A stretch of 64,000 bases of DNA from a virus, in IMG/VR virus record IMGVR_UViG_3300045988_068751. One strand, written 5' to 3'. Positions 18,416 to 33,515 of this stretch are shown in pieces; positions within the stretch are counted from its first letter, which is position 1, and every line of letters starts with the position of its first letter. Below the pieces are notes generated by a model that saw only the letters and a list, made by a program, of their open reading frames with translations, ran no database searches and was not told the DNA's origin. The position numbers and the translations under genes were made by a program.

Positions 18416-18486
18416 AGAGGATTAGTTCAATGGTAGAAGGCTAGTTACAACTAGTAGTGGGAGTTCGAATCTCCCATCCTCTCCCA
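18416..18486 (+). tRNA. tRNA-like element with perfect T-arm (GGGAG-TTCGAAT-CTCCC), acceptor agaggat/atcctct and encoded CCA. The body is ~5 nt too short and the anticodon loop is only 6 nt (TTACAA); aberrant or pseudo-tRNA
   Basis: manual folding. Confidence 0.35.
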
Positions 18487-18565
18487 ATCATTTTAAAGTT
18501 TTGTATAGTTTAGGCTTGCCCCAGTCATGTTGTGAAACACACTTGGGCTTTTAATTAGTAAATTT

Positions 18566-18919
18566 ATGAATCAAAACGCAGTTAATTCTTTAAGGAATGC
18601 TAAGAGGCATATTCTTATTAGCGATGTTGATAAGTTCAATAGCCATTTATTGTATTACATATTAAATGTTATATATGGAACACATGACCATATTAAATTA
18701 AATACGATACGTGAAAGACTTGAACGTGAGCTTAAATGGTCATTGGACGAGCATATTCCTGATAAGGATGTAATTAGAGAATGGCTTGACAATGATTACC
18801 CTCTTATATGCATAACAGAGTTATCGTTTGACAGTTGTATTAAACTTGCCAACGATTTCCCAGATTATGAAATTGTAGTTTATAGTTGGATGAAACATGA
18901 AGGAAACTTACCATTTTAA
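18566..18919 (+). CDS. hypothetical protein
   Basis: ORF track. Confidence 0.5.
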   Translation: MNQNAVNSLRNAKRHILISDVDKFNSHLLYYILNVIYGTHDHIKLNTIRERLERELKWSLDEHIPDKDVIREWLDNDYPLICITELSFDSCIKLANDFPDYEIVVYSWMKHEGNLPF

Positions 18920-19055
18920 ATGGAATAAAAATAACTCCTAGGCTATTAAGTCTGTAATGGGTACGCTACTCAATGTAGCACAGGAAGATACTGATAGCTT
19001 TTTTGTTCAGGTTTGAGAGACCTCCTGGCATGAGAGGATAATCATGCCGTTCTAT

Positions 19056-19574
19056 GGGCCTAGATTTGGTTTTGACAGGCGATTACAAGTTAGTAAGACG
19101 TGTAGAGTTCGTACCAACTCTTTAATAATGATACAGCAATTTAAGTGGAAACACTGAAGTAAGAATGGCAGCCTAAGCTGCTGGCTTATCTATTAATTTA
19201 GCTCTAAGTCGGGTTAATTGGAGAGACCTAGAAACAGAAGAGGTGTGGGAAGAAGCGTATAGAGCAGCCCACTTAACTTGAAAGCCAAAGGTTAGTAAAG
19301 CTGAAATCTCCGCTACCTATCTATGGGTTACAAATAGAAACGTTCTCCAACGTAAATGGAGTGGTGGAGCGACCGTTCGGTCAAGCCCAGTTTGGTAGTT
19401 TGTGAACAACTAAGTCGTAGCCCTACGAGGGAGACGTAATTGGTGAATTAACACTCGGCTTCTTAGTAAAACTACCTACATGCTGAACTCAACAGCTGAT
19501 GTAATAAAATAGAGACACACGTAATCTTATTAATGAGGGTTGTTTGGACGGCGGTTCGACTCCGCCTAGGTCCA
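19056..19574 (+). ncRNA. ssrA: putative tmRNA (SsrA-like). The 5' end GGGCCUAGAUUUGGUUUUGACAGG resembles the E. coli tmRNA 5' end. Acceptor stem GGGCCUA/UAGGUCC carries G3-U70. The 3' T-arm is GGCGG-TTCGACT-CCGCC. The candidate tag ORF reads (A)GNTEVRMAA-stop, with the stop in the loop of a gcagc-cuaa-gcugc hairpin
   Basis: manual alignment to remembered E. coli SsrA 5' region and tag/helix-5 arrangement; 519 nt is longer than typical. Confidence 0.55.
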
Positions 19575-19623
19575 CTATTATTAACGTTTAAATATCAATT
19601 TTAGCTGAATTGGAACTATTAAA

Positions 19624-19905
19624 ATGAAAGCAAGGTTATTAAAGAAACTTCGCAAAGAATCAAAGAAACTGAAATTAATAAGAGGTGAGGATTATCAATA
19701 CATAGTTACTGATAGTCCTCATGATATATTAAGACCAAAGCTTGATACTTACTACAGTGGCACATACTACTGTGGTCAAGAATTATTATTTGACGAAGAT
19801 GTAATTGCATGGTTACATCAATGCAGACGTAATTGGATTCTGTCCGAGATTAAACGAATGCGTGTACATCTGCGTAAATCTCGAATTAGAATATATAAAG
19901 AGTAA
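19624..19905 (+). CDS. hypothetical basic protein
   Basis: ORF track. Confidence 0.45.
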   Translation: MKARLLKKLRKESKKLKLIRGEDYQYIVTDSPHDILRPKLDTYYSGTYYCGQELLFDEDVIAWLHQCRRNWILSEIKRMRVHLRKSRIRIYKE

Positions 19906-19931
19906 TTGTTTCACTAAAAGTTATTGAAATT

Positions 19932-20429
19932 ATGGGAAAGAGGTCAATATCCGACGATGACATCGTTCGGATTTTTAACACGGTAAAGGCAATGAATCCT
20001 GGGCCTTTTAAGATTACAGATGTAGTCAGGGATTTAAAGAAGAATGGCTTCCCAAGGCCAGAGAACTTCATGGCTGTTTTGCGTAAGCAGGGAGTGATTG
20101 AACCTGACGGTGCTATCTATACTAAAGGATTTATGTGGAAAGAACATGGCCCTTTGTATAAGACTAGAGTCATTGAATTGATAACTATCAGCAGGAAAGA
20201 AATGGCTAAGATACAGAGAGATGCGTATGCTAAGAGAATGGCTATTAAAGCTGGCACTTACGTAGCACCTCCTAAACCTAAGCCACAAGCTGAAATGGAA
20301 GCTGTTACAGAAGCGGAAGAAGACAAACATCTGATTCCTATTACACAAGCTGAAATGGAAGCAATCAAATTCCTGAAATCGAGAGGTTACAGAATCACTA
20401 AATTAATAACAGTTGAACAGATAGTATGA
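19932..20429 (+). CDS. hypothetical protein
   Basis: ORF track. Confidence 0.5.
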   Translation: MGKRSISDDDIVRIFNTVKAMNPGPFKITDVVRDLKKNGFPRPENFMAVLRKQGVIEPDGAIYTKGFMWKEHGPLYKTRVIELITISRKEMAKIQRDAYAKRMAIKAGTYVAPPKPKPQAEMEAVTEAEEDKHLIPITQAEMEAIKFLKSRGYRITKLITVEQIV

Positions 20430-21121
20430 AGTTTACAGTACAAGGGAACACGCCATTCAGTGCACATATTTGCCAATATCTATATGATTTGGAAAGCAAC
20501 TTTGCTAAGGAGAAATTATCATTGCCACTTAGTCAGATTATAGCTCATATCTTATATGGGACTAAGAGAATCAGACTTGGTAATGAAGCTATTCCGTCCG
20601 AAGCAATCACTATTTTGGAAGAATGTATTGAAGCTAATCAGCCAATACCAGTCAATTGTATCTTCGGCAGTTCTGAATCGGAGAAAGACTATGTTGATGT
20701 TGCTGAATTTCAATCTCTTCAAACGTTGAAGGATATAAGCAGGAGAGTTGCTAAATTCTACTATCCAGGCTTGAACATAAGACTAGATGTAGTAGGCGAT
20801 TCAAAATACGTTAGTAAGGTGATGAGACTGGCAACAGTCCTGGGTGGTTTTACCATAGGCACACACCAATCAGCTATTAACGTATCATTCGCTCACTACC
20901 GGCCAGCACACTATTATTATAAGTCTATTCCGTCTCGAAACATTCTACGAGGTGGATATGTTCCAGCTTGGGACGGTAGAGGTTATTTATACTTAGAATC
21001 CCCACATGATATTGTGAGTATGATAACTACAGCTGACAATCCTGATATTCTTTCGACGACTGTGGTGTTAGAAGCAAACGAAGAGACGGTAGACCTTCGT
21101 GTAGACTATCTAATACCGTAA
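20426..21121 (+). CDS. hypothetical protein (231 aa)
   Basis: ORF track; ATGA overlap. Confidence 0.55.
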   Translation: MKFTVQGNTPFSAHICQYLYDLESNFAKEKLSLPLSQIIAHILYGTKRIRLGNEAIPSEAITILEECIEANQPIPVNCIFGSSESEKDYVDVAEFQSLQTLKDISRRVAKFYYPGLNIRLDVVGDSKYVSKVMRLATVLGGFTIGTHQSAINVSFAHYRPAHYYYKSIPSRNILRGGYVPAWDGRGYLYLESPHDIVSMITTADNPDILSTTVVLEANEETVDLRVDYLIP

Positions 21122-21383
21122 ATCCACTATTGACGAATAGTGGTAGCAAAACTTGGTCTGAAGAACCAGTAGACATACTCCGGAGTGTGTCTATGACTTA
21201 AAGGCTATATCAAAGAGTTGAAACCTGTATCTATTCGAACAGTAGAAGTTCACCTGATTAAGCATCAGAAAACAGTAGTGCAAATCTACTATAGATATTG
21301 TGTAAGAGAGAATCTACACGGTCTGCATTATATAATCAGCATGCAGATAGGTCACCAAGCAAACCTCTTTCCTGCCTGGTCAA

Positions 21384-21440
21384 GTGTGCATTACGGTCTG
21401 TAAGTGGCGAGCGGGTTAACGTATGTCCGATTGCCGTAAT
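21384..21440. other. 9-bp inverted repeat gcattacgg ... ccgtaatgc enclosing a 39-nt loop, upstream of gene 21500
   Basis: seen directly. Confidence 0.3.
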
Positions 21441-21499
21441 GCCGCTTGTTTATTGTTTAGAATAAAGAAAGACTCTCATAACAATAAATTTAACAAGAG

Positions 21500-23194
21500 A
21501 TGGAAATGAAAGGAGCACAAAGGCCAAGGAGGCCTTACCCTAATGCCGCACGTCAAAGGCGGGATGAGAATAAACCTAAGTTTGTGGATAATAATCAGTT
21601 ATTCATAGACCAGTTTGTTAATCTTAAGAAATGTCTTCAGCCACGTACCTACGTGCAAGTGGCTAAAGATATGTATCCTTTATGGAAAGCTAATCCATTA
21701 CTATGTACTAAGTTTACTGCATATACGAGAATGATAACTCGTAAATGTAGAATAACTACCCCGGAAGGAGTTATACAACTTGATACACAGCAAGGAGAAG
21801 GTTTGAAGAATGAAGGTATAATGAGAATGTTGTGGTTGGCAATCTATCACAAACCCACATTCCATGCCAACATTGCTTATTTTGCAGCAGCTGGATGCTG
21901 GAAAGATTTCATTACTATGATGGCTTTAGATGTTCAACTCCATGGCTTTAAGCACAGATTGGATTGGGACTTCTTCAAGAAAGTCATATTCGCAGGTCTT
22001 GCCAACGGTCAGACATGTGATTTAGTAAAGAAGTATCTTCCTCGTGTTCGTTCCAGTGTTGCATGTAAGACAGATGAGGCAAAAGCACGTAACACAGTAG
22101 CCAAATTCTTGGCGGAAGGCCTTTATGGTAAACCTAAGGATGAAGGAGACTATTCAACCTATCGTAAATATAGGAAGATGAAGAATAGCGGGAAAGCAGC
22201 CCAATGGCAGCAGTTAATCAGTCAAAAGAAATTCTTGGAAATTGATTTTGACACTGTTACTGGAAAGGCGCTGGCACAGCTAGTAGGCTCTAAATTCCTC
22301 AAACATCAAGGTCTTAAAGAGAAGTATCAGAACTGGTTGAAGAACCGTAAGAAGCCCTCTAATAGCGGATTTCTACATACTCTGTTCAAACCATACGGAT
22401 TGGATAAAATTGCCGAAGAGATTCCAGAATTTATGGAAACTTCTATTAATGCAAGTTTCAATGTATTTGTTGATAATGCTAAACGCAATAGAGTAGCTCC
22501 GTTGTTGGTAGTAAGAGATATAAGTCATTCTGCTAATGGTGAGATAGAGAATAGCGAAACATCTGCTTACAGTTTGGGTAAAGCATATGCTTTATATCAT
22601 TCTGAATTACTTCCTACAATATTCAAGAACTCCTATGCCGTGTTAGAGGATAACATGGTTCTACGTAAGTTCAAAGGTCAGAATGTCATTGAGAAATGGA
22701 AATCTGACAAAGAAGAAGCATTATGCCAGAATCCTTCTATTATTAATATAGCAGAAATGCTGTGTAAAATGAAAGAAGATTATGGTGTGGATGAAGGAGA
22801 GTTCCCTAGAGGCTGTGTGGTAATTACTAACCATACATATTTTACCAAGTTGAACAACCAAGCATTCGTGGAATTTAAGCAAAGACTGCTTAAAGCAAAT
22901 TTCAGTAAGGAATTTGTAAGAGCATTCAAAGTTATCATTTGGAGAGTTCCTTTAGCATATAAGGGAAGACCTAATGTGGCTTTGGTTCCAGGAGTGTCAA
23001 ATTGCTTCTTAGTAAATGGACTTAATAATTCAACATCCTCATTTATTACTGGAGAGAAGAGGTTCCAGGTGCCTAAAACCACTAGAGACATCTTTAAGCA
23101 TGCTATGAATCAAGAGTTGCTTAATATGATGATTCTAGAGAAGGATGTTGTCAAGAAGAATGCAAGCGTGCAGAAGAAGCCTGTGAAGGCCTAA
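21500..23194 (+). CDS. hypothetical protein (564 aa)
   Basis: ORF track; no motif recognised. Confidence 0.6.
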   Translation: MEMKGAQRPRRPYPNAARQRRDENKPKFVDNNQLFIDQFVNLKKCLQPRTYVQVAKDMYPLWKANPLLCTKFTAYTRMITRKCRITTPEGVIQLDTQQGEGLKNEGIMRMLWLAIYHKPTFHANIAYFAAAGCWKDFITMMALDVQLHGFKHRLDWDFFKKVIFAGLANGQTCDLVKKYLPRVRSSVACKTDEAKARNTVAKFLAEGLYGKPKDEGDYSTYRKYRKMKNSGKAAQWQQLISQKKFLEIDFDTVTGKALAQLVGSKFLKHQGLKEKYQNWLKNRKKPSNSGFLHTLFKPYGLDKIAEEIPEFMETSINASFNVFVDNAKRNRVAPLLVVRDISHSANGEIENSETSAYSLGKAYALYHSELLPTIFKNSYAVLEDNMVLRKFKGQNVIEKWKSDKEEALCQNPSIINIAEMLCKMKEDYGVDEGEFPRGCVVITNHTYFTKLNNQAFVEFKQRLLKANFSKEFVRAFKVIIWRVPLAYKGRPNVALVPGVSNCFLVNGLNNSTSSFITGEKRFQVPKTTRDIFKHAMNQELLNMMILEKDVVKKNASVQKKPVKA

Positions 23195-23357
23195 GTATTT
23201 CGCGCACCGTTTATTTAATAGTTGAATTAATGTTCTGATTGGATAGAAGATAGATTTCATTATGCATGGAGAAGAGCGCATATTTGGTATAGTAATCTTT
23301 GTGCATATCTAGTAACACTAGGTGGGAATTTATTGGATGATTCCATAGGGACTGGAT

Positions 23358-23431
23358 AGAGATATAGTTCAGTGGTAGAACAGCTAAAGTCAATCTTTAG
23401 AAGAACATCAGTTCGAATCTGGTTATCTCTA
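23358..23431 (+). tRNA. tRNA, anticodon uncertain (loop gUCAAuc, reads as CAA, but positions 32/37 atypical and no long variable arm)
   Basis: acceptor agagata/tatctct, D-stem gttc/gaac, T-arm atcag-TTCGAAT-ctggt. Confidence 0.5.
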
Positions 23432-23533
23432 CACCATTTTATTAATATGATTCTTTCAACATATGCAGTGTCATTTCTATCTCGACTCATAGTCATTATT
23501 ACGAGTTAAAGTATCTGCAATTGTTGAATAACT

Positions 23534-23571
23534 ACTAAGCTCATCGGTTCGAGAGAATATGTGAGCTTAGT
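23534..23571 (+). other. hairpin family member H1: stem actaagctca/tgagcttagt, loop tcGGTTCGAGAGAATAtg
   Basis: see findings. Confidence 0.5.
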
Positions 23572-23681
23572 TTAATACCGAGCAAACTTCTATCGTATTT
23601 AATACATATTAACTTTTACATGTGGGGAAGATTCATTACCTTTGCACTCACAATTCACAGTTAATATGGATTGTGTGATTC

Positions 23682-23764
23682 GGGTATGCGCCAGAGTTGG
23701 AGAGCTGGGGCGGTCTGTAAAACCGTTGCCTATGGCTGAGTAGGTTCGAATCCTACCATGCCCA
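23682..23764 (+). tRNA. tRNA-Tyr (anticodon GTA), type II
   Basis: acceptor gggtatg/catgccc, anticodon arm gcggt-cuGUAaa-accgt, long variable arm, T-arm gtagg-TTCGAAT-cctac. Confidence 0.8.
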
Positions 23765-23817
23765 CTCACACTGCGATAATTAAATACAATATCTGTTGAG
23801 GTCAAACTCGACAAACC

Positions 23818-23845
23818 CTTCTATGGTTCGAGAGAATAGTAGAAG
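23818..23845 (+). other. hairpin family member H2: stem cttcta/tagaag, loop tGGTTCGAGAGAATAG
   Basis: see findings. Confidence 0.5.
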
Positions 23846-23865
23846 TAAACTGCGGGATTCGTATA

Positions 23866-24204
23866 ATGGTTATTATAACAGCCTTCCAAGCTGAAGATGA
23901 CAGTTCAATTCTGTTATCCCGCTCATTATTAATAATAGATGAGATTATGAAAGAGACATCATTTAAGGCAGGTGTTATTGGTGGATTATGTGGAGTATTT
24001 ACCTTCTTGGCATTATTTGCAACCACAAGTAAAGCATCAATTAATGAGTCTGCTGCTACTAATGGAGATTATAAAATCAACAGAGTGCAGTATGAATTTA
24101 TTAATGAACTAACCATTTATAAGGTATCAGGTCCTGGTATTCCAGGTATTAAGTATGTGCTTAGAGATTCCGAGAAAGGTGGTTTATGTGTATTGAATCC
24201 ATGA
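23866..24204 (+). CDS. hypothetical protein (possible later start at MKETSF with signal-peptide-like segment)
   Basis: ORF track. Confidence 0.4.
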   Translation: MVIITAFQAEDDSSILLSRSLLIIDEIMKETSFKAGVIGGLCGVFTFLALFATTSKASINESAATNGDYKINRVQYEFINELTIYKVSGPGIPGIKYVLRDSEKGGLCVLNP

Positions 24205-24482
24205 GTGAACACTGTCTTATTAAGAAGAATACTCCAGAACTTCGTAAGAAACTAGAGGATGCTGGGTTAAGTGTGTGTATATGTACTACATTTGAGGATG
24301 CTGATTGGCTTAGTTGCTGGGGTTCTCATATGTCATATGATATACATGGTGTGTATCCGGATGACGTGGACGATTTGTCTAAAGAAGCCTATCTGGAGAT
24401 GTATCTCAAGGAAACGAATCCGATTATATGTGAATCGGATGATGAGTTTATTAACATGTGTAAACAAATTAAAGGAAAATGA
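24186..24482 (+). CDS. hypothetical acidic protein
   Basis: ORF track. Confidence 0.45.
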   Translation: MCIESMSEHCLIKKNTPELRKKLEDAGLSVCICTTFEDADWLSCWGSHMSYDIHGVYPDDVDDLSKEAYLEMYLKETNPIICESDDEFINMCKQIKGK

Positions 24483-24571
24483 TTATGCGGTAGATTACTT
24501 ACAAGCCACCATAAGATAGTTGATTATTAATTAAGGCAATTTATTTATTAACTTATTAACAATTAACTATT

Positions 24572-24910
24572 ATGGCAACAATTAAACAATTTAAACAAGA
24601 AATCGCGAATTTAGTAAAAGCACAGAAGGCAGCTAAAAACATTAATGACTGCTCATCAGTTTATTACAACAGAGGAAGATTACATGCAATGTATGTAGCT
24701 TATTACATATTAAAGCATAAACTAATCGGAGAAGCTATGAATGAGTATCTAGCTAAAGTTATCAAAGAATGGAAATCACTTGAAACTCAAGGTTGGTGTG
24801 GTTATTCTAAGATGTATAGTGGAGAGAAGTATTTCCGAGAAAGAGTTGATTCACTGATTGATACATATTCTGATGAAGAGATTGTATGTGCTGATAGACC
24901 AGAAGCTTGA
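24572..24910 (+). CDS. hypothetical protein
   Basis: ORF track. Confidence 0.5.
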   Translation: MATIKQFKQEIANLVKAQKAAKNINDCSSVYYNRGRLHAMYVAYYILKHKLIGEAMNEYLAKVIKEWKSLETQGWCGYSKMYSGEKYFRERVDSLIDTYSDEEIVCADRPEA

Positions 24911-25160
24911 TGCAGTTTATGGTTGTGTACAAGGAGGTCATGCAGTAGCGCAGTGGTTATTAGAACATCCTAAGCAGGATTGGAATAATAGCTATTTAAT
25001 CTACTTATATGCAGACTTAGACAAATGGAAAGTAAGATTAGACTTAGTAAATAAGGACTATTCTTCATTCTATGAACCAGACCTTGGTAATCAATTAACA
25101 GCAATCGCATTACAAGATGACGGTCGCATGTTCAAGAAACTTAAATTAGTAAGAGAATGA
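24858..25160 (+). CDS. hypothetical protein
   Basis: ORF track (overlaps the previous ORF in another frame). Confidence 0.4.
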   Translation: MIHILMKRLYVLIDQKLDAVYGCVQGGHAVAQWLLEHPKQDWNNSYLIYLYADLDKWKVRLDLVNKDYSSFYEPDLGNQLTAIALQDDGRMFKKLKLVRE

Positions 25161-25462
25161 TATACAAACGAGATTATTATGTCAGTATAGGTGACGAACA
25201 GGTAATTATTACTAAGAACGCCATTATGCCATATAATGTAATGGAGCCTAGAAACAAATACTTTTATAAAGTTGGAGATAAGGTTTTAACTCCGTTCGGA
25301 ATACAAACTATTAAGGACATTATAAAGGATTATAGTTCTCAACCAGGTCATGAATGGATTATCCTAGTAGAGGAGAATGGCAATCAGTATAAGCCGTGTG
25401 AGTTAATTGGCATAGTAGTCAAGGAACTTACACTTGAACAGTGGAATCAAATTATCGAATAG
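25157..25462 (+). CDS. hypothetical protein
   Basis: ORF track. Confidence 0.5.
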   Translation: MIYKRDYYVSIGDEQVIITKNAIMPYNVMEPRNKYFYKVGDKVLTPFGIQTIKDIIKDYSSQPGHEWIILVEENGNQYKPCELIGIVVKELTLEQWNQIIE

Positions 25463-25501
25463 TTGATGAGTTGTGGGTAATCTCGTAAAACCCTCTGTCG
25501 C

Positions 25502-25573
25502 CCCATTACTTCAGTGGTAGAAGAGCAAATTCTAAACTTGTATGGCGTTGGTTCGAGTCCAACATGGGGCACT
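25502..25573 (+). tRNA. tRNA with CUA anticodon (amber-suppressor-type; loop UUCUAAA with U33, A37), type I, amino-acid identity unknown
   Basis: acceptor gccccat/atggggc, D cttc/gaag, anticodon stem gcaa(a)/(c)ttgt with one A-C mismatch, T-arm gttgg-TTCGAGT-ccaac. Confidence 0.7.
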
Positions 25574-25576
25574 TGC

Positions 25577-25653
25577 GGAAGAATGAAACGGATATATAAA
25601 TCATACTAGTCTCATAAGCTAGTTATATTGGGTTCGACTCCCATTTCCGCAAC
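25577..25653 (+). tRNA. tRNA with CAT anticodon (Met/Ile2/fMet) and an unusually long D-loop
   Basis: acceptor gcggaag/tttccgc, anticodon arm ctagt-cuCAUaa-gctag, T-arm tggg-TTCGACT-ccca. Confidence 0.5.
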
Positions 25654-25689
25654 TACAGTCATTGTACATTTGCATTTTCCAAATGCTAA

Positions 25690-25752
25690 GAAGACAAACA
25701 GCAATTTCCTGTATGTTGGCATAAGTAAATGAATCTATTGTCTTCTGATGAT
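25690..25752 (+). ncRNA. tRNA-leader structured element copy 1 (stem gaagaca/tgtcttc, loop begins aacagcaa, tail TGATGAT) immediately 5' of tRNA-Ile
   Basis: see findings. Confidence 0.55.
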
Positions 25753-25826
25753 GGGTGTGTAGCTCAGTCGGTTAGAGCACATCTCTGATAAGGATGAGGT
25801 CCCTGGTTCAATTCCAGGCACACCCA
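25753..25826 (+). tRNA. tRNA-Ile (GAT)
   Basis: acceptor gggtgtg/cacaccc, D gctc/gagc, anticodon arm catct-cuGAUaa-ggatg, T-arm cctgg-TTCAATT-ccagg. Confidence 0.85.
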
Positions 25827-25857
25827 CAATACAACAATTTTCAATAGCTTTGAATAA

Positions 25858-25928
25858 GAAGTCTTACAGCACGAAAGAAAGTGTTTCATATTTTATGATT
25901 TTAATTAAACTAAGAGACTTCTGTAGTC
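25858..25928 (+). ncRNA. tRNA-leader structured element copy 2 (stem gaagtct/agacttc, loop begins tacagcac, tail TGTAGTC) 5' of tRNA-Pro
   Basis: see findings. Confidence 0.55.
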
Positions 25929-26001
25929 CGGGATGTAGTTCAGTAGATAGAATGCGTGGTTTGGGACCACGAGGTCGCTGGTTTGAATCCAGTCATCCCG
26001 A
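25929..26001 (+). tRNA. tRNA-Pro (TGG)
   Basis: acceptor cgggatg/catcccg, anticodon arm cgtgg-uuUGGga-ccacg, T-arm gctgg-TTTGAAT-ccagt. Confidence 0.85.
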
Positions 26002-26046
26002 CCCCCTGTAGCATCCAAGAGAGGATGCTGATAATCCCATAATAAT

Positions 26047-26076
26047 AAATGTGGACAACTACTCCGTTCGTGAGAA
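26047..26076 (+). other. hairpin family member H3: stem aactact/agtagtt, loop cCGTTCGTGAGAATAG
   Basis: see findings. Confidence 0.5.
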
Positions 26077-26224
26077 TAGAGTAGTTTTAATAAGAACCAT
26101 AATTAACACAATAATATATAGTTTCACTAAACAATCATCAAATCAACTCAACAATCAACCCAACAACTTTTATTATGATTTGATTAACCTGTTTCATAGT
26201 TAAGCCCATAAGTCGTATTGATAT

Positions 26225-26296
26225 GTGGGCTTGCCCGAGAGGTTTAGGGGCTGGTCTGCAAAACCAGTTAGGACGGTTCGATTCCGTCAGCCCACT
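26225..26296 (+). tRNA. tRNA-Cys (GCA), discriminator U
   Basis: acceptor gtgggct/agcccac, anticodon arm ctggt-cuGCAaa-accag, T-arm gacgg-TTCGATT-ccgtc. Confidence 0.8.
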
Positions 26297-26316
26297 CTCG
26301 ATTTAGTGAAACATAA

Positions 26317-26379
26317 GAAGGCGTACAGCACTAATCATTGTACAGTTTACATGTTTTTGATAACGCGCCTTCTGTGGAT
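26317..26379 (+). ncRNA. tRNA-leader structured element copy 3 (stem gaaggcg/cgccttc, loop begins tacagcac, tail TGTGGAT) 5' of tRNA-Lys
   Basis: see findings. Confidence 0.55.
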
Positions 26380-26451
26380 GATTCCGGAGCATGTATGGAT
26401 ATGCTATAGACTTTTAATCTATAGAACAGGGTTCAAGTCCCTGCGGAATCA
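26380..26451 (+). tRNA. tRNA-Lys (TTT)
   Basis: acceptor gattccg/cggaatc, D gcat/atgc, anticodon arm ataga-cuUUUaa-tctat, T-arm caggg-TTCAAGT-ccctg. Confidence 0.85.
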
Positions 26452-26492
26452 CATATGTACTAAGATTGTACATGATGTCAAAGAACGAGTTT

Positions 26493-26522
26493 AACCACTC
26501 AGTCTGTGAAGATAGAGTGGTT
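26493..26522 (+). other. hairpin family member H4: stem aaccact/agtggtt, loop cAGTCTGTGAAGATAG
   Basis: see findings. Confidence 0.45.
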
Positions 26523-26556
26523 TATTTAGATTATTAATTTAAAATCAGATACATTT

Positions 26557-26700
26557 ATGAGTAAGATTATTGGAGTATTGTTAGTAATTGGTTCTGTTAT
26601 AGGAACAGTTGCTTGTATAGCTCAACATCAATTTAATCCATTCACTGGAGTATTATTGTTGCTAGTATTTTGCTTTGGTTGCTGTTTAGCGATGAGCTAG
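26557..26700 (+). CDS. small hydrophobic membrane protein (~47 aa, MSKIIGVLLVIGSVIGTVACIAQHQFNPFTGVLLLLVFCFGCCLAMS)
   Basis: manual ORF. Confidence 0.3.
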   Translation: MSKIIGVLLVIGSVIGTVACIAQHQFNPFTGVLLLLVFCFGCCLAMS

Positions 26701-26875
26701 ATTATTTATTTATTGACTAAAACTGATGTATTATGAGACTATTTAAGTTAATTAAGAAAGCAGTTCGTTGGTATTTCAAAGTGTCAGCTGATAGCTACAC
26801 GTGGTATCCAACAGGAGTAGTTCCTTACCATAGGGATTAACTCCGATGCAATCGGGATAGGTCAATTAAACATTT

Positions 26876-26950
26876 GGGAAGGAAGCTTAAGTGGTATACA
26901 GCTGCGGCCTGTTAAGCCGAAGATAGCGAGTTCGAGTCTCGCCCTTCCCG
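26876..26950 (+). tRNA. tRNA-Asn (GTT)
   Basis: acceptor gggaagg/ccttccc, anticodon loop cuGUUaa, T-arm gcgag-TTCGAGT-ctcgc. Confidence 0.75.
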
Positions 26951-27064
26951 CATTATTAACATTAAATTATAAGATTATGCATAGTTTTGGTGCTTACATT
27001 GTGGGAGCTATAGTGCTAGTAGTACTGTATTATATCTTTAAAGATTCCACAATCTAGAATTGAT

Positions 27065-27139
27065 GCGTCCTTAGCTCAATCGGTAGAGCCCCTGTCTCCA
27101 AAACTGGGTGTGTTGCATGTTCGAGTCGTGCAGGGCGTG
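27065..27139 (+). tRNA. tRNA-Trp (CCA)
   Basis: acceptor gcgtcct/agggcgt (two G-U), D gctc/gagc, anticodon loop cuCCAaa, T-arm gcatg-TTCGAGT-cgtgc. Confidence 0.65.
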
Positions 27140-27185
27140 CATGGTAGAAAATAGATAGGTTATCTATTAATTAGAATTACTAAAT

Positions 27186-27593
27186 GTGAAGTGTTCCGTA
27201 TGTGGAAAGCAATTAAGTGCTGGTAATCAATCTGGATTATGTCAAGAATGTTACCGTAAGAAAGTAAACGAAGATAAGATTGCAAAGTGGAAAGAAACTG
27301 GAGATACTGGATGTAAAGTTTCAACTACACTTAGAAATTGTATCAGAGATTATATTGCAGATAAACAGGAACACAAGTGTGCTATATGTGGTATAGATAG
27401 TGTATGGCAGGGTAAGCCCCTGAACTTTATACTTGACCATATAAACGGAGATGCTTCTAACAACTGGGAATATAACTTACGATTAATATGTCCTAACTGT
27501 GATTCACAGTTGGACACTTATAAGTCTAAGAATAAGAACAGTGCTAGAACACATAGAAAGAAATATCAAGGAAGTATGCCGGAGCCAGGTTGA
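27186..27593 (+). CDS. HNH homing-endonuclease-like protein with N-terminal CxxC zinc ribbon; its 3' end overlaps tRNA-Ser by 24 nt
   Basis: motif DHINGDASNNWEYNLRLICPNCDSQ (HNH), CSVCGK...CQEC. Confidence 0.65.
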   Translation: MKCSVCGKQLSAGNQSGLCQECYRKKVNEDKIAKWKETGDTGCKVSTTLRNCIRDYIADKQEHKCAICGIDSVWQGKPLNFILDHINGDASNNWEYNLRLICPNCDSQLDTYKSKNKNSARTHRKKYQGSMPEPG

Positions 27594-27656
27594 ACGGAAC
27601 GGACTTGAAATCCGTAGGCCCTTCGGGGTCCGGGGGTTCGAATCCCTCTGCTTCCT
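27570..27656 (+). tRNA. tRNA-Ser (TGA), type II
   Basis: acceptor ggaagta/tgcttcc, anticodon arm acgga-cuUGAaa-tccgt, variable arm ggccc-ttcg-gggtc, T-arm ggggg-TTCGAAT-ccctc. Confidence 0.8.
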
Positions 27657-27675
27657 CAACTAATTTGAATGTACT

Positions 27676-27999
27676 ATGAAGTTTAAAGTGAAATTAAGGA
27701 GAGTGTCTACGTTAAGTAGAAACCAAATTTGTAGAGTGTACGAATCTGGAATGCGAGAAATGGTAAAACGTCCCACATTAGTTAGAGTCCTTCTTAAGGA
27801 TTACAAAACTAAAGAAGATGTTAATGCTTTACTTGAGCAATTAAGCGAAGCAAGTAGAGCCGCTGAACAGGATTTATATGCAGAGTACCCAAAGTTGCCC
27901 AGAAAGGCTAAGAAGGAACTCAAGAAAAGGTTGAATGCAGTCAATAATGCCTATTGTGTTGGTATTACTTTATTGCTGGCTGAATCAGATGGCTTATAA
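27676..27999 (+). CDS. hypothetical protein
   Basis: ORF track. Confidence 0.5.
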   Translation: MKFKVKLRRVSTLSRNQICRVYESGMREMVKRPTLVRVLLKDYKTKEDVNALLEQLSEASRAAEQDLYAEYPKLPRKAKKELKKRLNAVNNAYCVGITLLLAESDGL

Positions 28000-28282
28000 A
28001 TTCATACCTACTCGATATGTAGACAATAACTCCAAGTTGTTGGCAAGAATTTACTTAAATAGGCAAAATTCTCGCCGAGTGGTATTACGAGGATACTATG
28101 ATTTTGATAAAGAGAAGTTTTACATTTCATCTATATCAAAGAAGGCTAATACAAGGTCTGTGATGAAGTTCTTACTAAAGACTATAGAATGTAGTAGATT
28201 TCATTGGGAGTATTCAGGGAACTATGATGATAAGCTCTATCAAGAGTGGTTAAAGGAACATGCAGTATTTAATAGATTGTAA
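27989..28282 (+). CDS. hypothetical protein (start moved to the internal Met; the track ORF starts at 27935)
   Basis: ORF track. Confidence 0.4.
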   Translation: MAYKFIPTRYVDNNSKLLARIYLNRQNSRRVVLRGYYDFDKEKFYISSISKKANTRSVMKFLLKTIECSRFHWEYSGNYDDKLYQEWLKEHAVFNRL

Positions 28283-28291
28283 AATTATCGT

Positions 28292-28483
28292 ATGAAAGGA
28301 ATTAATTTAACAGGATTGGACATGAAGAAGTTTGTTGGAACCGGCTACAACCCGTCTCAAGACATTATTAACACTAATGGTAGAGACGATGGAAGAACTA
28401 AGAACGGAGAGACTGAAGGATTCACTAATCCAAAGAAACAAAAGGTGGAGGAACCTAAAGAAAGACCAGAAGTATATTACTAG
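28292..28483 (+). CDS. hypothetical small protein
   Basis: ORF track. Confidence 0.35.
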   Translation: MKGINLTGLDMKKFVGTGYNPSQDIINTNGRDDGRTKNGETEGFTNPKKQKVEEPKERPEVYY

Positions 28484-28682
28484 GATTAAACTCCACGCTG
28501 CCTACTGGTACAATCCAGATAAGACAGCAAGAGGTAGACATTGGACAGAATTATATAATTCTAAATATACGTTTGCCTATAAAACAACCAGCACTCCTTG
28601 TAGTTGTCCTATGTGTAAAGGGGAACGTTATAATAGGAGACAGTTTAAGAAAGAGACAAGAGAATTACTTAATCTAGAATAA
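28332..28682 (+). CDS. hypothetical protein with C-terminal CxC...CxxC (overlaps the previous ORF in another frame; the true start may be internal)
   Basis: ORF track. Confidence 0.35.
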   Translation: MLEPATTRLKTLLTLMVETMEELRTERLKDSLIQRNKRWRNLKKDQKYITRIKLHAAYWYNPDKTARGRHWTELYNSKYTFAYKTTSTPCSCPMCKGERYNRRQFKKETRELLNLE

Positions 28683-28699
28683 CTGAATGGGTAATATAA

Positions 28700-28752
28700 G
28701 AAGGCATCAGCACTTTTACTGTGTCATGTAGTTCAATTTGCCTTCTGATGAT
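28700..28752 (+). ncRNA. tRNA-leader structured element copy 4 (stem gaaggca/tgccttc, loop begins tcagcac, tail TGATGAT; second helix catcag/ctgatg) 5' of tRNA-Arg
   Basis: see findings. Confidence 0.55.
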
Positions 28753-28825
<73 letters not shown>

Positions 28826-28840
28826 CTAATAATAGTTAAC

Positions 28841-29143
28841 ATGATTGGGTTCATAGAGTATTTAATTAGTAAAGGGTATAAACCTTATCGCAAGGTAATG
28901 TCTAAGAAGGGTTCTACATATGTAGAGGATTCTAATATAGGATTTTATTCTTCTATGTCAGAGCATATTGACCTTCGTCTTATTAAAGGTAAGAAGGAAG
29001 TAGTGTATGGATTACATGAGAGAGGACATTCTCCTACTCTTATATATCCTAGACCTAAATGGGTTAAATCTGATGCAGATATGGATAGACTATTTCTGAA
29101 TTATTCATTTGAAGAAATTGCTGAAATGATAGGTTTAAAATAG
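28841..29143 (+). CDS. hypothetical protein
   Basis: ORF track. Confidence 0.5.
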   Translation: MIGFIEYLISKGYKPYRKVMSKKGSTYVEDSNIGFYSSMSEHIDLRLIKGKKEVVYGLHERGHSPTLIYPRPKWVKSDADMDRLFLNYSFEEIAEMIGLK

Positions 29144-29330
29144 TGCACAATGAGGAGGGTATGCATGTAGAGTTCTATAACATGCTATGGGTTGGAGTCG
29201 GAGACTGACAAGAACAGTTGGGGCATGACTAAGTAATTGTGCATTTTATAGGTTATCAGACCGGTAGGTAACCTTCCGTAATCAGTCGGACGTTGGGAGC
29301 TGATAGCCCTACGATAGTGTGGCTAAATAT

Positions 29331-29403
29331 GGGCTGTGTAGTGTAAATGGCTAACACATCACTCTTGCACAGTGAAGTTGGAGTTCGAGTCTCACACGGT
29401 CCA
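29331..29403 (+). tRNA. tRNA-Ala (TGC) with G3-U70; the T-stem has two outer mismatches
   Basis: acceptor gggctgt/acggtcc, anticodon arm tcact-cuUGCac-agtga. Confidence 0.6.
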
Positions 29404-29431
29404 CAGATTGTTGAACTTAAATTGAAAGGTA

Positions 29432-30010
29432 ATGAATCGAGAAGAATTAGAAGATTTGAAAATAACCAAGATTAGTGAAGAGGAATATGAACGCCTTAAA
29501 GATTCAGACGAAGGAGAAGCTATGGAAGTGTCAATTGACTCATTAAAAGCTGAACAAGAGAAGCTAAAAGAGTCAGCATCATTACTTGATGAAGCAAAGA
29601 AGGCATTTTCAGCTTATTGGTTCTTACTGTCCCTCTTTATAGGACAGAATCTATGTTTGGGTGTTGTATTGTGTCAAATCTATTCAGCATGGTCTAAAGG
29701 AGAACCCCTCGGATTTATGGTACTATGTGCCATATCAATAATAGTGGCTGCTTCATATTCATGGAATGCAATAAGACCATATCGAGAACGATATAAGAAC
29801 TATAAACAAGTTCGCACTGCTTATAGTCGTCTGGTTGAAGCTAATAGAGCTGTGTTGGAATTACTGGAATATGTAGAATCTAAGCCCAAAGAAGAAAGAG
29901 CTGAAGAAGCCGAAGAGTTAGCAGAGCCAGTAGTTATGGCTGTAGCTGAACTATTCTTTGCTAGAATGGCATATACTAGGGCACTAAAAGAAGGATTAGA
30001 GTTGCAATAA
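29432..30010 (+). CDS. coiled-coil / membrane protein (acidic N- and C-termini, central hydrophobic segment)
   Basis: ORF track. Confidence 0.5.
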   Translation: MNREELEDLKITKISEEEYERLKDSDEGEAMEVSIDSLKAEQEKLKESASLLDEAKKAFSAYWFLLSLFIGQNLCLGVVLCQIYSAWSKGEPLGFMVLCAISIIVAASYSWNAIRPYRERYKNYKQVRTAYSRLVEANRAVLELLEYVESKPKEERAEEAEELAEPVVMAVAELFFARMAYTRALKEGLELQ

Positions 30011-30018
30011 CTCAATAT

Positions 30019-30092
30019 GGTGGCATTAGCTCAATTGGCAGAGCATTAGGTTGTGGTTCTAAGGGTTACGAGTTCAAGTCTCGTATGTCACC
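30019..30092 (+). tRNA. tRNA-His (GTG) with encoded G-1 and discriminator C
   Basis: g-gtggcat/atgtcac-c, anticodon arm ttagg-uuGUGgt-tctaa, T-arm acgag-TTCAAGT-ctcgt. Confidence 0.8.
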
Positions 30093-30391
30093 CAATTCTG
30101 CTGTTTAGGTATAAACGTATCATAAATCTTCCTGTTTGGTTTGACTTATTCAGCAGAGTTATATTTTATCTTGAAACGGAATGCCGAGGATGTGGTTAGG
30201 TGAAAATCCTAAAGTGGAATGTAGGGTACGTTGCGTGACGAAGTAATGGGAGTAGGTGCGATGGCAGCTTAATTAATGTTGAGGCCTCGTTAATATATGT
30301 ATAGCCGTACAGCACCGAAGGATTTAGACTGTCCAAAGCAACTGGCGTAATAAAGCATAAAATCCAGTGAAGACGTATGTGTAGGCAGTAT

Positions 30392-30466
30392 GGGGCGGTA
30401 GCGCAGGTGGTCAGTTCGCGCTGGACTGAAAATCCAGAGATAATGGTTCGACTCCATTTCGCCCCA
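30392..30466 (+). tRNA. tRNA-Phe (GAA)
   Basis: acceptor ggggcgg/tcgcccc, anticodon arm ctgga-cuGAAaa-tccag, T-arm aatgg-TTCGACT-ccatt. Confidence 0.8.
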
Positions 30467-30495
30467 CTTTAATAGATTAAATAATTATTAGTAAG

Positions 30496-31017
30496 ATGGA
30501 CAATAACTTGTATTATATCTTAGGAGGCATCGCCTATGGTATATTTATCCTACAATTCATAATATCATGGGTTACTGGGGAGTTCGATGTCGATGTAGAC
30601 TTTGATGGTGATGCTGATTTTGATGTCAGTGATGTTGTATCCTTTAAAGGATTTATCCATTTCTTCATGGGATTCGGAGGATGGACATCTATTAAGCAAT
30701 TATTAGGTTATGAAGTAACCTGGATTGATTGGTTAATAGGATTCTTTATAGGTCTTGTATTTGTATTTATGCTGTATCATTTATATAAGTTCTGTATGAA
30801 ATTGCAGAACCTTCCTAAAGACGAACCGAAGACTAACTTAGTTGGCAGAACTGCTACTATCTATGTACATTTAGGTGAAGGGCGCCATTTGGCATCCGTG
30901 AACATAAGTGGAGCATTGAGAGAAGTAGAAGTTGTATCTCTTAATAAGAAGATATATCCTGTCAATGAGCCAGTAACGATTCGTAAATACGAAGACAATA
31001 AATTATACATAGATTAA
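30496..31017 (+). CDS. NfeD-like membrane protein (N-terminal TM helices + C-terminal OB-fold-like beta domain), partner of the downstream flotillin
   Basis: hydrophobic N-half; C-terminal LVGRTATIYVHLGEGRHLASVNISGALREVEVVS...; YqiJ/YqiK-like gene order. Confidence 0.55.
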   Translation: MDNNLYYILGGIAYGIFILQFIISWVTGEFDVDVDFDGDADFDVSDVVSFKGFIHFFMGFGGWTSIKQLLGYEVTWIDWLIGFFIGLVFVFMLYHLYKFCMKLQNLPKDEPKTNLVGRTATIYVHLGEGRHLASVNISGALREVEVVSLNKKIYPVNEPVTIRKYEDNKLYID

Positions 31018-31030
31018 TACCAATTTCAAG

Positions 31031-32992: not shown

Positions 32993-33014
32993 TCCTTTTA
33001 CAGTGAATTTCTAA

Positions 33015-33079
33015 GAAGACTTACAGCACTAAGGTAATCATAAGCGATTGATATAGCATAAATAAGTCTTCTGTGGATT
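33015..33079 (+). ncRNA. tRNA-leader structured element copy 5 (stem gaagact/agtcttc, loop begins tacagcac, tail TGTGGATT) 5' of tRNA-Ser(GCT)
   Basis: see findings. Confidence 0.55.
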
Positions 33080-33167: not shown

Positions 33168-33186
33168 CGCTGGCTAATAAGAGTTT

Positions 33187-33507: not shown

Positions 33508-33515
33508 TAAGGTAT

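What the first reader, a model, noticed from the sequence alone, without database searches (positions are those of the whole stretch)
25502..25573. Phage-encoded tRNA with CUA anticodon (amber suppressor type)
The fold is a canonical cloverleaf with anticodon loop U-U-C-U-A-A-A (U33, CUA at 34-36, A37). This tRNA would decode UAG.
- In this window TAG is used as a genuine stop by at least one gene (the PurA-like gene 36800..37867).
- The suppressor may therefore act on a subset of genes, or late in infection.
Basis: seen in the sequence. Interest (0 to 1): 0.7.

Follow-up and report, generated by a model that had tools for sequence, protein, structure and literature searches.

The report
Conserved amber-suppressor tRNA, unrecoded gut phage
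A large human-gut phage carries a real, evolutionarily maintained tRNA that should read the UAG stop codon, yet none of its own genes contains an internal UAG, while its more distant relatives have rewritten UAG (or UGA) into an amino-acid codon.

Summary
A tRNA gene with anticodon CUA lies at 25500-25572 (+), inside an array of about 29 phage tRNAs (ARAGORN; Rfam 62.7 bits).

It is under selection:
- Four alleles were found in more than 70 gut-metagenome copies and three sister species.
- All keep CUA-A37-A38.
- Seven stem pairs changed on both sides and stayed paired.

- I closed the genome at about 184.7 kb: the window, a 9.5-kb gap, and GenBank MT835470.1.
- It is fully standard-code. Terminase, portal, major capsid and tail-fibre genes are uninterrupted.
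- TAG ends 23 of 219 genes, and none of the 45 in the structural block.
- The only coding-like in-frame TAG junction (1778-2272 | 2285-2827) joins two accessory genes that the sister species lack.

New context:
- Every terminase relative at 42-61% identity is recoded, with 3-13 in-frame TAGs aligning with Gln, or 5-6 TGAs aligning with Trp.
- Three of the four CUA tRNAs found in those relatives are tRNA-Gln-like. This one is not; its nearest paralogue is tRNA-Arg(UCU).

Verdict: a known kind of element (phage suppressor tRNA) in a standard-code branch of a mixed-code clade. Its amino acid and its present role are unknown.

The parts
25500..25572 (+). tRNA gene with anticodon CUA (amber-suppressor type). 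Type I, 5-nt variable loop, G1-C72, discriminator A73, no encoded CCA, A31.C39 mismatch.
   Evidence: ARAGORN. Rfam RF00005 62.7 bits. Covariation over three distinct alleles. Identical in 19 IMG/VR contigs and in 39 of 54 metagenome copies.
25532..25534 (+). Anticodon CTA (positions 34-36), within the loop TTCTAAA at 25530-25536.
   Evidence: CTA is invariant in all four alleles, while positions 31-33 vary.
18416..52740 (+). tRNA array that contains the CUA tRNA: 28 ARAGORN tRNAs on the + strand covering nearly all amino acids. This is context, not part of the element.
25574..25655 (+). Adjacent tRNA-like gene with loop CTCATAA (anticodon CAU), starting 1-2 nt after the CUA tRNA and probably co-transcribed with it. 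ARAGORN misses it in the window.
   Evidence: Read by eye. Sub-threshold Rfam tRNA hit at 25588-25651, 22.7 bits. Three different alleles sit at the same spot in the 19 contigs, one of them a canonical tRNA-Met(CAU).
25157..25462 (+). ORF (101 aa) immediately upstream. It ends in TAG 37 nt before the tRNA.
   Evidence: TAG is also the stop in the sister species L227.
1778..2827 (+). Only candidate read-through target in the genome. ORF A (1778-2272, stop TAG at 2270-2272), then 4 sense codons, then ORF B (2285-2827) in the same frame.
   Evidence: The junction is identical in MT835470 and in strain variants. One variant has CAG at the TAG position. A and B are absent from the sister species.
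36800..37867 (+).
   Evidence: Pfam Adenylsucc_synt 4e-33. TAG stop, kept in three sister loci. tRNA-Gln at 37889 rules out a continuing ORF.
19056..19577 (+). Phage tmRNA gene. It is possibly relevant because read-through of stop codons creates non-stop ribosome complexes.
   Evidence: Rfam RF00023 85.8 bits.

Best explanation
**What it is.** This is a genuine, selectively maintained tRNA gene whose anticodon CUA pairs with UAG. It belongs to a ~185-kb human-gut phage whose genes lack Shine-Dalgarno sites, which points to a Bacteroidota-type host.

**How it most likely works (inferred).**
- It is transcribed with the + strand tRNA array and cut out by host RNase P and 3' processing.
- CCA is added after transcription, because CCA is not encoded. 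The phage has its own CCA-adding-type enzyme.
- A host synthetase charges it, and it then competes with release factor 1 at UAG.
- The amino acid cannot be named from sequence. The body is not tRNA-Gln-like; the nearest paralogue is the phage tRNA-Arg(UCU), but both classical Arg determinants (A20, C35) are missing.

**What is shown.** In this phage no gene needs the tRNA. The genome is entirely standard-code, so its only substrates in cis are the 23 TAG stop codons (10% of genes, none in the structural block). The lineage is a standard-code branch of a clade whose other members have recoded TAG to Gln or TGA to Trp in structural genes.

**Reading.** I therefore see it as a piece of stop-codon-recoding machinery kept in a lineage that is not yet, or no longer, recoded. 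Today it would act as a probably weak, tolerated amber suppressor. Weakness is suggested by the conserved 31.39 mismatch and by C33 in some alleles. Late genes end in TAA, and a phage tmRNA can clear read-through ribosomes. Its selected benefit is unknown.
For: **Real tRNA**
- ARAGORN and Rfam both call it.
- RNAalifold independently gives the cloverleaf.
- 7 compensatory pairs, and 0 of 500 shuffles reach the score.
- The tertiary pair G19-C56 in the window allele becomes A19-U56 in the sister alleles (read).

**Selection on CUA**
- Four alleles occur in three species (SPFH protein 69-75% identical).
- Across 19 IMG/VR contigs and 54 metagenome copies, every allele has CTA-A-A, while positions 31-33 and the stems vary.
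- No sibling with another anticodon was found.

**Standard code**
- The genome closes at 184,746 bp.
- ORF coverage is 0.9-1.0 under the standard code.
- TerL, portal, major capsid and tail fibres are intact.
- Of 219 genes, 145 end in TAA, 51 in TGA and 23 in TAG. In the structural block the counts are 41, 4 and 0.
- Extensions after TAG stops score as non-coding.
- One coding-like TAG junction exists genome-wide.
- The sister species' TerL regions are standard-code too.

**Clade context**
- All TerL relatives at 42-61% identity have 3-13 in-frame TAGs or 5-6 in-frame TGAs.
- TAG columns align with Gln and TGA columns with Trp.

**Not Gln-like**
- Three of the four CUA tRNAs of recoded relatives match the phage tRNA-Gln 5' half at 0.70-0.89 (the fourth at 0.59).
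- This family matches it at 0.56-0.59, and tRNA-Arg(UCU) at 0.67-0.73 over the full length.

**Other support**
- CCA-adding-type enzyme; tmRNA; no Shine-Dalgarno motifs.
- The framework is published: suppressor tRNAs in recoded gut phages and in standard-code relatives (bioRxiv 10.1101/2021.08.26.457843).
Against: - There are no expression, charging or suppression data.
- The window sequence alone folds best into a non-cloverleaf.
- The 31.39 mismatch, and C33 in two alleles, could impair decoding.
- A tRNA with no sense-codon job, kept with compensatory changes over three species, implies a benefit that this account does not identify.
- TAG stops are not depleted overall (10.5%). Their absence from late genes is matched by a TGA deficit, so it may be no more than a TAA preference.
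- Gln codons at the relatives' TAG columns show no CAG excess, so there is no reversion signature. The direction, pre-adaptation or relic, is unresolved.
- About 80 of the 219 proteins were scanned against family libraries. A release factor or synthetase among the rest cannot be excluded.
Confidence: 0.55

Rival explanations
1. One reading: the suppressor decodes in-frame TAG codons in a subset of this phage's own genes (late, structural or lysis genes), as in code-15 gut phages.
For: Distant relatives do exactly this. The literature model places recoding in late genes.
Against: - The complete ~185-kb genome has no TAG-interrupted gene.
- TerL, portal, major capsid and tail fibres are continuous ORFs.
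- Making TAG a sense codon raises ORF coverage no more than making TGA one does.
- The structural sequence comes from a 96.5% identical relative (MT835470.1), not from the very same isolate.
Confidence: 0.03
2. Programmed read-through: the tRNA exists to make a C-terminally extended or fused protein at one TAG stop. The leading candidate is an A-B fusion (1778-2272 read through TAG 2270 into 2285-2827), giving two products from one message.
For: - It is the only TAG junction in the genome with coding-like sequence on both sides and no competing gene.
- It is in frame with no other stop.
- The junction is identical in all strains seen.
- One deletion variant translates the junction with CAG (Gln) at the TAG position and has lost B's ATG.
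Against: - B has its own ATG.
- A is truncated or split in several strains.
- A and B have no detectable homologues in the two sister species that keep the tRNA.
- With 23 TAG-terminated genes, one in-frame neighbour is no more than chance expects.
- Other TAG stops conserved across species (33618-34511, 36800-37867) have short or non-conserved extensions.
Confidence: 0.1
3. Action in trans on other genomes. The suppressor changes how UAG is read in the infected cell to the phage's advantage. It could corrupt or extend host proteins as a form of host takeover, with the phage tmRNA recycling ribosomes. Or it could interfere with, or make the phage compatible with, co-infecting TAG-recoded relatives and prophages.
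For: - It is conserved without any need in cis.
- The phage's late genes never end in TAG.
- The phage encodes a tmRNA.
- Relatives and other gut phages are TAG-recoded.
- The tRNA body differs from three of the four CUA suppressors found in those relatives, which are Gln-type, so it could insert a different residue.
Against: This is pure inference. No target has been identified, and the host and its co-infecting phages are unknown. A weak suppressor (mismatch 31.39, C33) would be a poor weapon. The lack of TAG in late genes is explained by a general TAA preference.
Confidence: 0.15
4. It is not a UAG decoder. One version: with 31.39 unpaired the loop has 9 nt, and another register gives UCU/CCU (Arg), so it would be an odd tRNA-Arg. 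The other version: the RNA has a non-translational role, or is a decaying paralogue of tRNA-Arg(UCU).
For: - The nearest paralogue is tRNA-Arg(UCU), at 0.67-0.73 identity.
- The string UUCUAA is shared with the Arg loop, shifted by one base (read).
- The shifted register gives UCU, UCU and CCU in the three alleles.
- Bacterial tRNAs with this acceptor stem are mostly Arg(UCU) and Lys, in a truncated sample.
Against: - Positions 34-38 (CUAAA) are invariant, whereas the would-be wobble base and 'U33' of the shifted register vary.
- The phage already has Arg-UCU, Arg-CCU and Arg-ACG tRNAs.
- A20 is deleted.
- Compensatory changes in all four stems and in the 19-56 pair argue against decay.
Confidence: 0.07

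Closest known systems
Suppressor tRNA(CUA) of TAG-to-Gln recoded gut phages (genetic code 15): crAss-like, Lak and the large-phage clades of Borges et al.
   Same: - Phage-encoded, CUA anticodon, set among other phage tRNAs, from the human gut.
- Host probably uses the standard code.
- Terminase relatives of this phage are recoded in exactly this way, and some of them carry CUA tRNAs.
   Different: - This phage's own genome has no in-frame TAG, and TAG is a working stop.
- Three of the four relatives' suppressors are tRNA-Gln-like, and this one is not.
- No release factor or synthetase gene was found among the proteins scanned.
Suppressor tRNAs in standard-code close relatives of recoded phages (a TGA suppressor in a standard-code 'Agate' phage; bioRxiv 10.1101/2021.08.26.457843)
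   Same: A standard-code genome carries a stop-codon suppressor inside a clade of mixed genetic codes. The authors read this as a step that may precede code change.
   Different: Here the codon is TAG, not TGA. The tRNA is kept in at least three species with compensatory substitutions, which argues for a lasting function rather than a recent acquisition. TAG stops are not especially depleted, at 10.5%.
Classical bacterial and phage amber suppressors (E. coli supE, supF; T4 psu1), from my own knowledge
   Same: CUA anticodon with A37 and A38 in a 7-nt loop. They decode UAG in competition with RF1.
   Different: Those are single-base anticodon mutants of a sense tRNA and keep its identity. No sense-anticodon sibling of this tRNA was found in viral or metagenome collections, and its isotype is unclear.
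tRNA-Pyl (ARAGORN's label)
   Same: Anticodon CUA.
   Different: This tRNA has an ordinary 7-nt D loop (GG in the window allele, GA in the sister alleles), a T loop TTCGAGT (TTTGAAT in the sister alleles), a 5-nt variable loop, and a 4-5-bp anticodon stem. tRNA-Pyl is defined, from my own knowledge, by a 6-bp anticodon stem, a 3-nt variable loop, a tiny D loop and no T-psi-C motif.

Membership tests
Elongator tRNA (Rfam RF00005) | Score above the curated threshold, with a cloverleaf of 7-bp acceptor, 4-bp D, 5-bp anticodon and 5-bp T stems. | tested here: met
   62.7 bits against 29. ARAGORN cloverleaf. RNAalifold consensus. The exception is that pair 31-39 is a mismatch in all alleles.
Elongator tRNA (Rfam RF00005) | Structure maintained by compensatory substitutions among homologues. 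| tested here: met
   7 pairs changed on both sides. 95% of cells are paired, against 25-51% for slid partners. 0 of 500 shuffles reach the score. This rests on only three distinct sequences.
Amber suppressor tRNA | Anticodon CUA at positions 34-36 of a 7-nt loop, with U33 and a purine at 37. | tested here: met
   Loop UUCUAAA. CUA-A37-A38 is invariant in four alleles. U33 is C in two alleles.
Amber suppressor tRNA | It is expressed, aminoacylated, and inserts an amino acid at UAG. | not testable with these tools
   This needs tRNA-seq, acid-gel Northern blots, or reporter assays.
Code-15 (TAG to Gln) recoded phage system | In-frame TAG codons inside phage genes, mainly structural and lysis genes. 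| tested here: not met
   No such gene in the 184.7-kb composite genome. The feature is met in TerL relatives at 42-61% identity.
Code-15 (TAG to Gln) recoded phage system | Coding density rises markedly when TAG is read as sense. | tested here: not met
   The gain in ORF coverage from TAG-as-sense is 0-0.19 per 8-kb bin and is no larger than for TGA-as-sense. Recoded relatives gain 0.2-0.6.
Code-15 (TAG to Gln) recoded phage system | Suppressor derived from tRNA-Gln, so that host GlnRS can charge it. | tested here: not met
   5'-half identity to the phage tRNA-Gln(UUG) is 0.56-0.59, against 0.70-0.89 for three of the four CUA tRNAs of recoded relatives (0.59 for the fourth). G1-C72 replaces U1-A72. 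Charging with Gln is not excluded.
Code-15 (TAG to Gln) recoded phage system | Accessory code-change genes (RF2, aminoacyl-tRNA synthetase). | tested here: inconclusive
   None was found among about 80 proteins scanned. These genes are optional in the published systems, and the remaining small ORFs were not scanned.
tRNA-Pyl | 6-bp anticodon stem, 3-nt variable loop, very short D loop, no GG or T-psi-C motifs. | tested here: not met
   4-5-bp anticodon stem, 5-nt variable loop, 7-nt D loop AGTGGTA, T loop TTCGAGT.

The most novel reading that the evidence does not exclude
A non-Gln amber suppressor is kept by a standard-code phage for use on other genomes' UAG codons. It would reprogram termination in the infected cell to damage or mistime co-infecting TAG-recoded relatives or prophages, or to corrupt host proteins. 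The phage itself would be protected by TAA-terminated late genes and its own tmRNA. This would be a form of genetic-code conflict between phages.
Probability: 0.12. Interest if true: 0.8.

Novelty: new member of a known kind. Interest (0 to 1): 0.45.

Why it matters
Stop-codon recoding in gut phages is thought to start when a suppressor tRNA is acquired, but few lineages sit at that boundary. This clade offers a clean natural comparison. Three ~185-kb species are fully standard-code yet keep a CUA tRNA under selection. Their terminase relatives have TAG-to-Gln or TGA-to-Trp recoded structural genes. The case makes two questions testable: whether a suppressor precedes or outlives recoding, and what a suppressor does for a phage that has no internal stop codons to read. 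It also warns annotators that a 'tRNA-Sup' or 'tRNA-Pyl' call does not by itself mean an alternative genetic code.

Tried and rejected
- **Close annotated relatives.** Megablast of 20001-64000 against GenBank phages gave nothing. Only window 1-5317 matched MT835470.1.
- **Wasted scan.** A mistyped anticodon-wildcard pattern found nothing and cost one viral scan. The corrected pattern returned the same 19 contigs, so no sense-anticodon sibling exists there.
- **Isotype by similarity.**
  - blastn of the tRNA against phage records gave only generic ~73% hits to Arg, Lys and Asn tRNAs.
  - The 5'-half pattern found nothing in 185,579 bacterial and archaeal genomes.
  - A metagenome search for siblings whose anticodon does not end in A found none.
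  - The isotype is left open.
- **Read-through evidence.** Extensions after TAG stops are no shorter and no more coding-like than those after TGA or TAA. TAG stops interchange freely with TAA and TGA between species.
- **A-B fusion.**
  - A and B are not paralogues.
  - Database 'fusions' are mostly singleton chimeras or deletion variants from Logan assemblies.
  - A and B are absent from the sister species.
  - Rejected as the conserved function.
- **Reversion signature.** Looked for CAG rather than CAA where relatives have TAG. There is no excess.
- **Structural-module annotation.** PHROGs and Pfam found nothing for most large virion proteins or for ORFs 306-3069, so the idea that A/B are tail chaperones upstream of a tape-measure-like protein could not be tested.
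- **Transcription signals.** The sigma-70 promoter and terminator scan around the tRNA was no better than shuffles, and the host probably uses other promoters.
- **tmRNA.** ARAGORN's tmRNA mode missed the tmRNA that Rfam finds.

Full report
**1. The observation**

ARAGORN finds 28 tRNA genes on the + strand between 18416 and 52740. One of them is a 73-nt tRNA at 25500-25572 with anticodon CTA at 25532-25534. Rfam's tRNA model scores it 62.7 bits, above the threshold of 29.

Its features are:
- a type-I tRNA with a 5-nt variable loop;
- G1-C72 and discriminator A73;
- no encoded CCA;
- an A.C mismatch at 31-39, the one departure from a textbook cloverleaf.

ARAGORN's 'Pyl' label reflects only the anticodon. 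The structural hallmarks of tRNA-Pyl are absent. The single sequence folds slightly better into a non-cloverleaf, -22.6 against -20.3 kcal/mol, so the case for the cloverleaf rests on comparison with homologues.

**2. It is conserved and under selection**

- The exact gene is present in 19 IMG/VR contigs and is identical over all 73 nt.
- Fetching the tRNA region of related contigs through a neighbouring SPFH-domain protein showed two sister species (SPFH 75% and 69% identical). Each carries a diverged CUA tRNA at the same place, after tRNA-Tyr and tRNA-Gly and before tRNA-Ile.
- A metagenome scan added a fourth allele, and all 54 copies there have CTA.
- Across the three distinct sequences aligned, 7 of 21 pairs changed on both sides and stayed paired, spread over all four stems. 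None of 500 shuffles reaches the observed covariation score, and partners slid by 1-3 columns give 25-51% pairing against 95%.
- RNAalifold independently returns the cloverleaf.
- The tertiary pair G19-C56 of the window allele is A19-U56 in the sister alleles (read).
- Positions 34-38 (CUAAA) never vary. Positions 31-33 do, including C33 in two alleles, and the 31.39 mismatch is kept in all.
- No sibling with another anticodon was found.

**3. The genome and its code**

Window 1-5317 matches the end of GenBank MT835470.1 at 96.5% identity. That record is an unannotated 117,447-bp scaffold from human faeces.

Loci fetched around the last window gene and around the NrdD gene at the start of MT835470.1 overlap each other. 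The map therefore closes into a circle: window, a 9.5-kb gap, then MT835470.1, for 184,746 bp in all. This agrees with related IMG/VR contigs of 182-190 kb.

The composite genome is standard-code throughout:
- ORFs of at least 120 codons cover 0.9-1.0 of most of MT835470.1, and reading TAG as sense adds no more than reading TGA as sense.
- The minus-strand block MT 32003-109394 holds the terminase large subunit, portal, major head protein and tail fibres as unbroken ORFs.
- A simple gene call gives 219 genes with stops TAA 145, TGA 51 and TAG 23. The structural block has TAA 41, TGA 4 and TAG 0.
- That absence of TAG goes with an equal deficit of TGA, so it may be only a TAA preference.
- Sequence after TAG stops looks non-coding, with a mean codon score of -0.05 against 0.29 for genes.
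- TAG stops swap with TAA and TGA between species.
- Genes lack Shine-Dalgarno motifs, 8% against 20% background. This is typical of phages of Bacteroidota, an inference from general knowledge.

**4. Is there any target in cis?**

I searched the whole genome for TAG codons flanked on both sides by at least 25 codons of coding-like sequence and not covered by another gene. The search gives one case. ORF A (1778-2272) ends in TAG at 2270 and is followed, after four sense codons, by ORF B (2285-2827) in the same frame.

Points in favour of read-through here:
- The junction is identical in every strain seen.
- One deletion variant translates it with CAG at the TAG position and has lost B's ATG.

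Points against:
- B has its own start codon.
- A is split or truncated in several strains.
- A and B are not related to each other.
- Neither has a homologue in the two sister species that keep the tRNA.

Read-through here is possible, but it cannot be the conserved reason for the tRNA.

**5. The wider clade**

Terminase relatives fall into two classes.
- The sister species (90-93% identity) have intact, standard-code terminase regions.
- Every relative at 42-61% identity is recoded. Some have 3-13 in-frame TAGs in the terminase gene and gain 0.2-0.6 in ORF coverage when TAG is sense. One group has 5-6 in-frame TGAs instead.

At well-conserved columns TAG aligns with Gln: 18 of 18, 20 of 23 and 11 of 15 in three columns. 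TGA aligns with Trp. This matches the published picture of large gut-phage clades that mix codes 11, 15 and 4, with recoding concentrated in structural and lysis genes, and with suppressor tRNAs occasionally seen in standard-code relatives (10.1101/2021.08.26.457843).

The direction of change could not be resolved. Gln codons at the relatives' TAG columns are CAA 8 and CAG 6, the same ratio as in the whole gene.

**6. Which amino acid?**

Three of the four CUA tRNAs found next to recoded terminases are clearly tRNA-Gln-like. They start with U1 and have the D arm GGTGTAATGGTAGCAC, and their 5' halves are 0.70-0.89 identical to the phage tRNA-Gln(UUG); the fourth is at 0.59. The family studied here is at 0.56-0.59.

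Its nearest paralogue is the phage tRNA-Arg(UCU), at 0.67-0.73. The two share the unusual A19-U56 T loop, but this tRNA lacks A20 and C35. From my own knowledge of E. coli, those are the main ArgRS determinants.

Bacterial tRNAs with the same acceptor stem and A73 are mostly Arg(UCU), Lys and Thr, in a truncated sample. Also from my own knowledge of the E. coli suppressor literature, orphan CUA tRNAs with A73 tend to be charged with Lys or Gln.

I leave the amino acid open.

**7. How it most likely works**

*Shown.* It is a conserved, structurally sound tRNA with an invariant CUA anticodon, in a standard-code genome, within a mixed-code clade.

*Inferred.*
- It is co-transcribed with the array. 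The next tRNA starts 1-2 nt downstream, and no + strand terminator lies nearby.
- CCA is added by the host or by the phage's own CCA-adding-type enzyme.
- It is charged by a host synthetase and competes with RF1 at UAG.
- The conserved mismatch at the base of the anticodon stem, and C33 in some alleles, suggest a weak suppressor.
- A weak suppressor would be tolerable because late genes end in TAA and because the phage carries a tmRNA that could clear ribosomes that read through to message ends.

The benefit that keeps it is not identified. The options are pre-adaptation to recoding, a relic of recoding, action in trans on host or competing recoded phages, or a strain-specific read-through product. 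The rival explanations above weigh each of these.

**8. Verdict**

The element is real, and the label 'amber-suppressor type' is justified. The proposal that it serves a subset of this phage's genes fails. It is a new member of a known kind.

Two features make it worth a note. It is maintained over several species in genomes that have no internal UAG. And its body is not the tRNA-Gln type seen in three of the four CUA tRNAs found in its recoded relatives.

Noticed in passing
window 25574-25655 (+); L001-L019: An undetected tRNA-like gene with a CAU anticodon loop (CTCATAA) and a 14-nt D loop abuts the CUA tRNA. Among otherwise near-identical strains this slot holds three quite different alleles. 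One is a canonical 72-nt tRNA-Met(CAU), and one differs by a compensatory acceptor-stem change. It looks as if a tRNA cassette is being swapped.
   Followed up: partly
window 18416-18486 (+): A tRNA (Rfam 49.8 bits) with a 6-nt anticodon loop TTACAA and an encoded CCA end; ARAGORN reports 'tRNA-???'. It could be the missing tRNA-Val(UAC), since no Val tRNA was called. The sister species L227 has another 6-nt-loop tRNA at 457-531.
   Followed up: no
window 23358-23432 (+): A 'tRNA-Leu(CAA)' with a short variable loop (type I, unlike bacterial tRNA-Leu). It has a pyrimidine at position 37 and a possible extra G32-C38 pair. Its identity is doubtful.
   Followed up: no
window 19056-19577 (+): A phage-encoded tmRNA (Rfam 85.8 bits) with large insertions; ARAGORN's tmRNA mode misses it. 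Read by eye, the tag would be (A)GNTEVRMAA followed by UAA.
   Followed up: partly
window 21124-21231 (+): A full-length, very strong match to RAGATH-34 RNA (121.5 bits against a gathering score of 60.7), a structured RNA of unknown function, lying between ORFs just upstream of the tRNA array.
   Followed up: no
window 36800-37867 (+): A short PurA-like protein (355 aa). It matches only the first ~277 of 416 Pfam positions and falls far below the NCBIfam cut-offs for PurA. The PurZ model hit is very weak (19 bits against 300). By these scores it is not a recognisable PurZ.
   Followed up: partly
L391-L428 (TerL relatives); L402, L409, L416, L421, L424, L427: Relatives with TerL 42-61% identical are stop-codon recoded: TAG to Gln in most, TGA to Trp in L422-L428. 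Some carry Gln-like CUA tRNAs of ~90 nt with an insertion in the variable region. Two carry UCA (opal-suppressor type) tRNAs, which ARAGORN labels SeC.
   Followed up: partly
window ~1196-2277; L199, L200, L349-L351; proteins P0001-P0027: The region between ORF 306-1145 and ORF B is a hotspot of deletions and domain swaps among strains. Many singleton 'chimeric' proteins are joined at microhomologies. Some B variants keep the first 53 residues and carry a different C-terminal domain with an Asp-box-like SxDGGxxW motif.
   Followed up: partly
L137-L141, L171 (NrdD); L370-L378 and others (TerL): In some strains the NrdD and TerL matches span about 1 kb more DNA than the protein needs, at 100% identity. 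This suggests self-splicing introns or inteins with homing endonucleases. HNH and NUMOD-type endonuclease genes are present (MT 65624-66406; L023 18400-19179).
   Followed up: no
MT835470.1 (L020) 6487-7695, 11046-11807, 12438-13358, 29901-30806: A tRNA and RNA repair toolkit sits next to the replication genes. It comprises an ATP-dependent ligase, a CCA-adding-type nucleotidyltransferase, a polynucleotide kinase-phosphatase, and a HAD 'Swiss Army Knife' RNA-repair domain fused to a YqeY/GatB-like domain.
   Followed up: no
IMGVR_UViG_3300045988_069849 (270,378 bp); ERZ857922.2 (337,704 bp); ERZ827512.8 (316,849 bp): Some contigs that carry the tRNA are about 1.5-1.8 times the closed genome length of ~185 kb. 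They are probably concatemer or misassembly artefacts rather than larger genomes.
   Followed up: no
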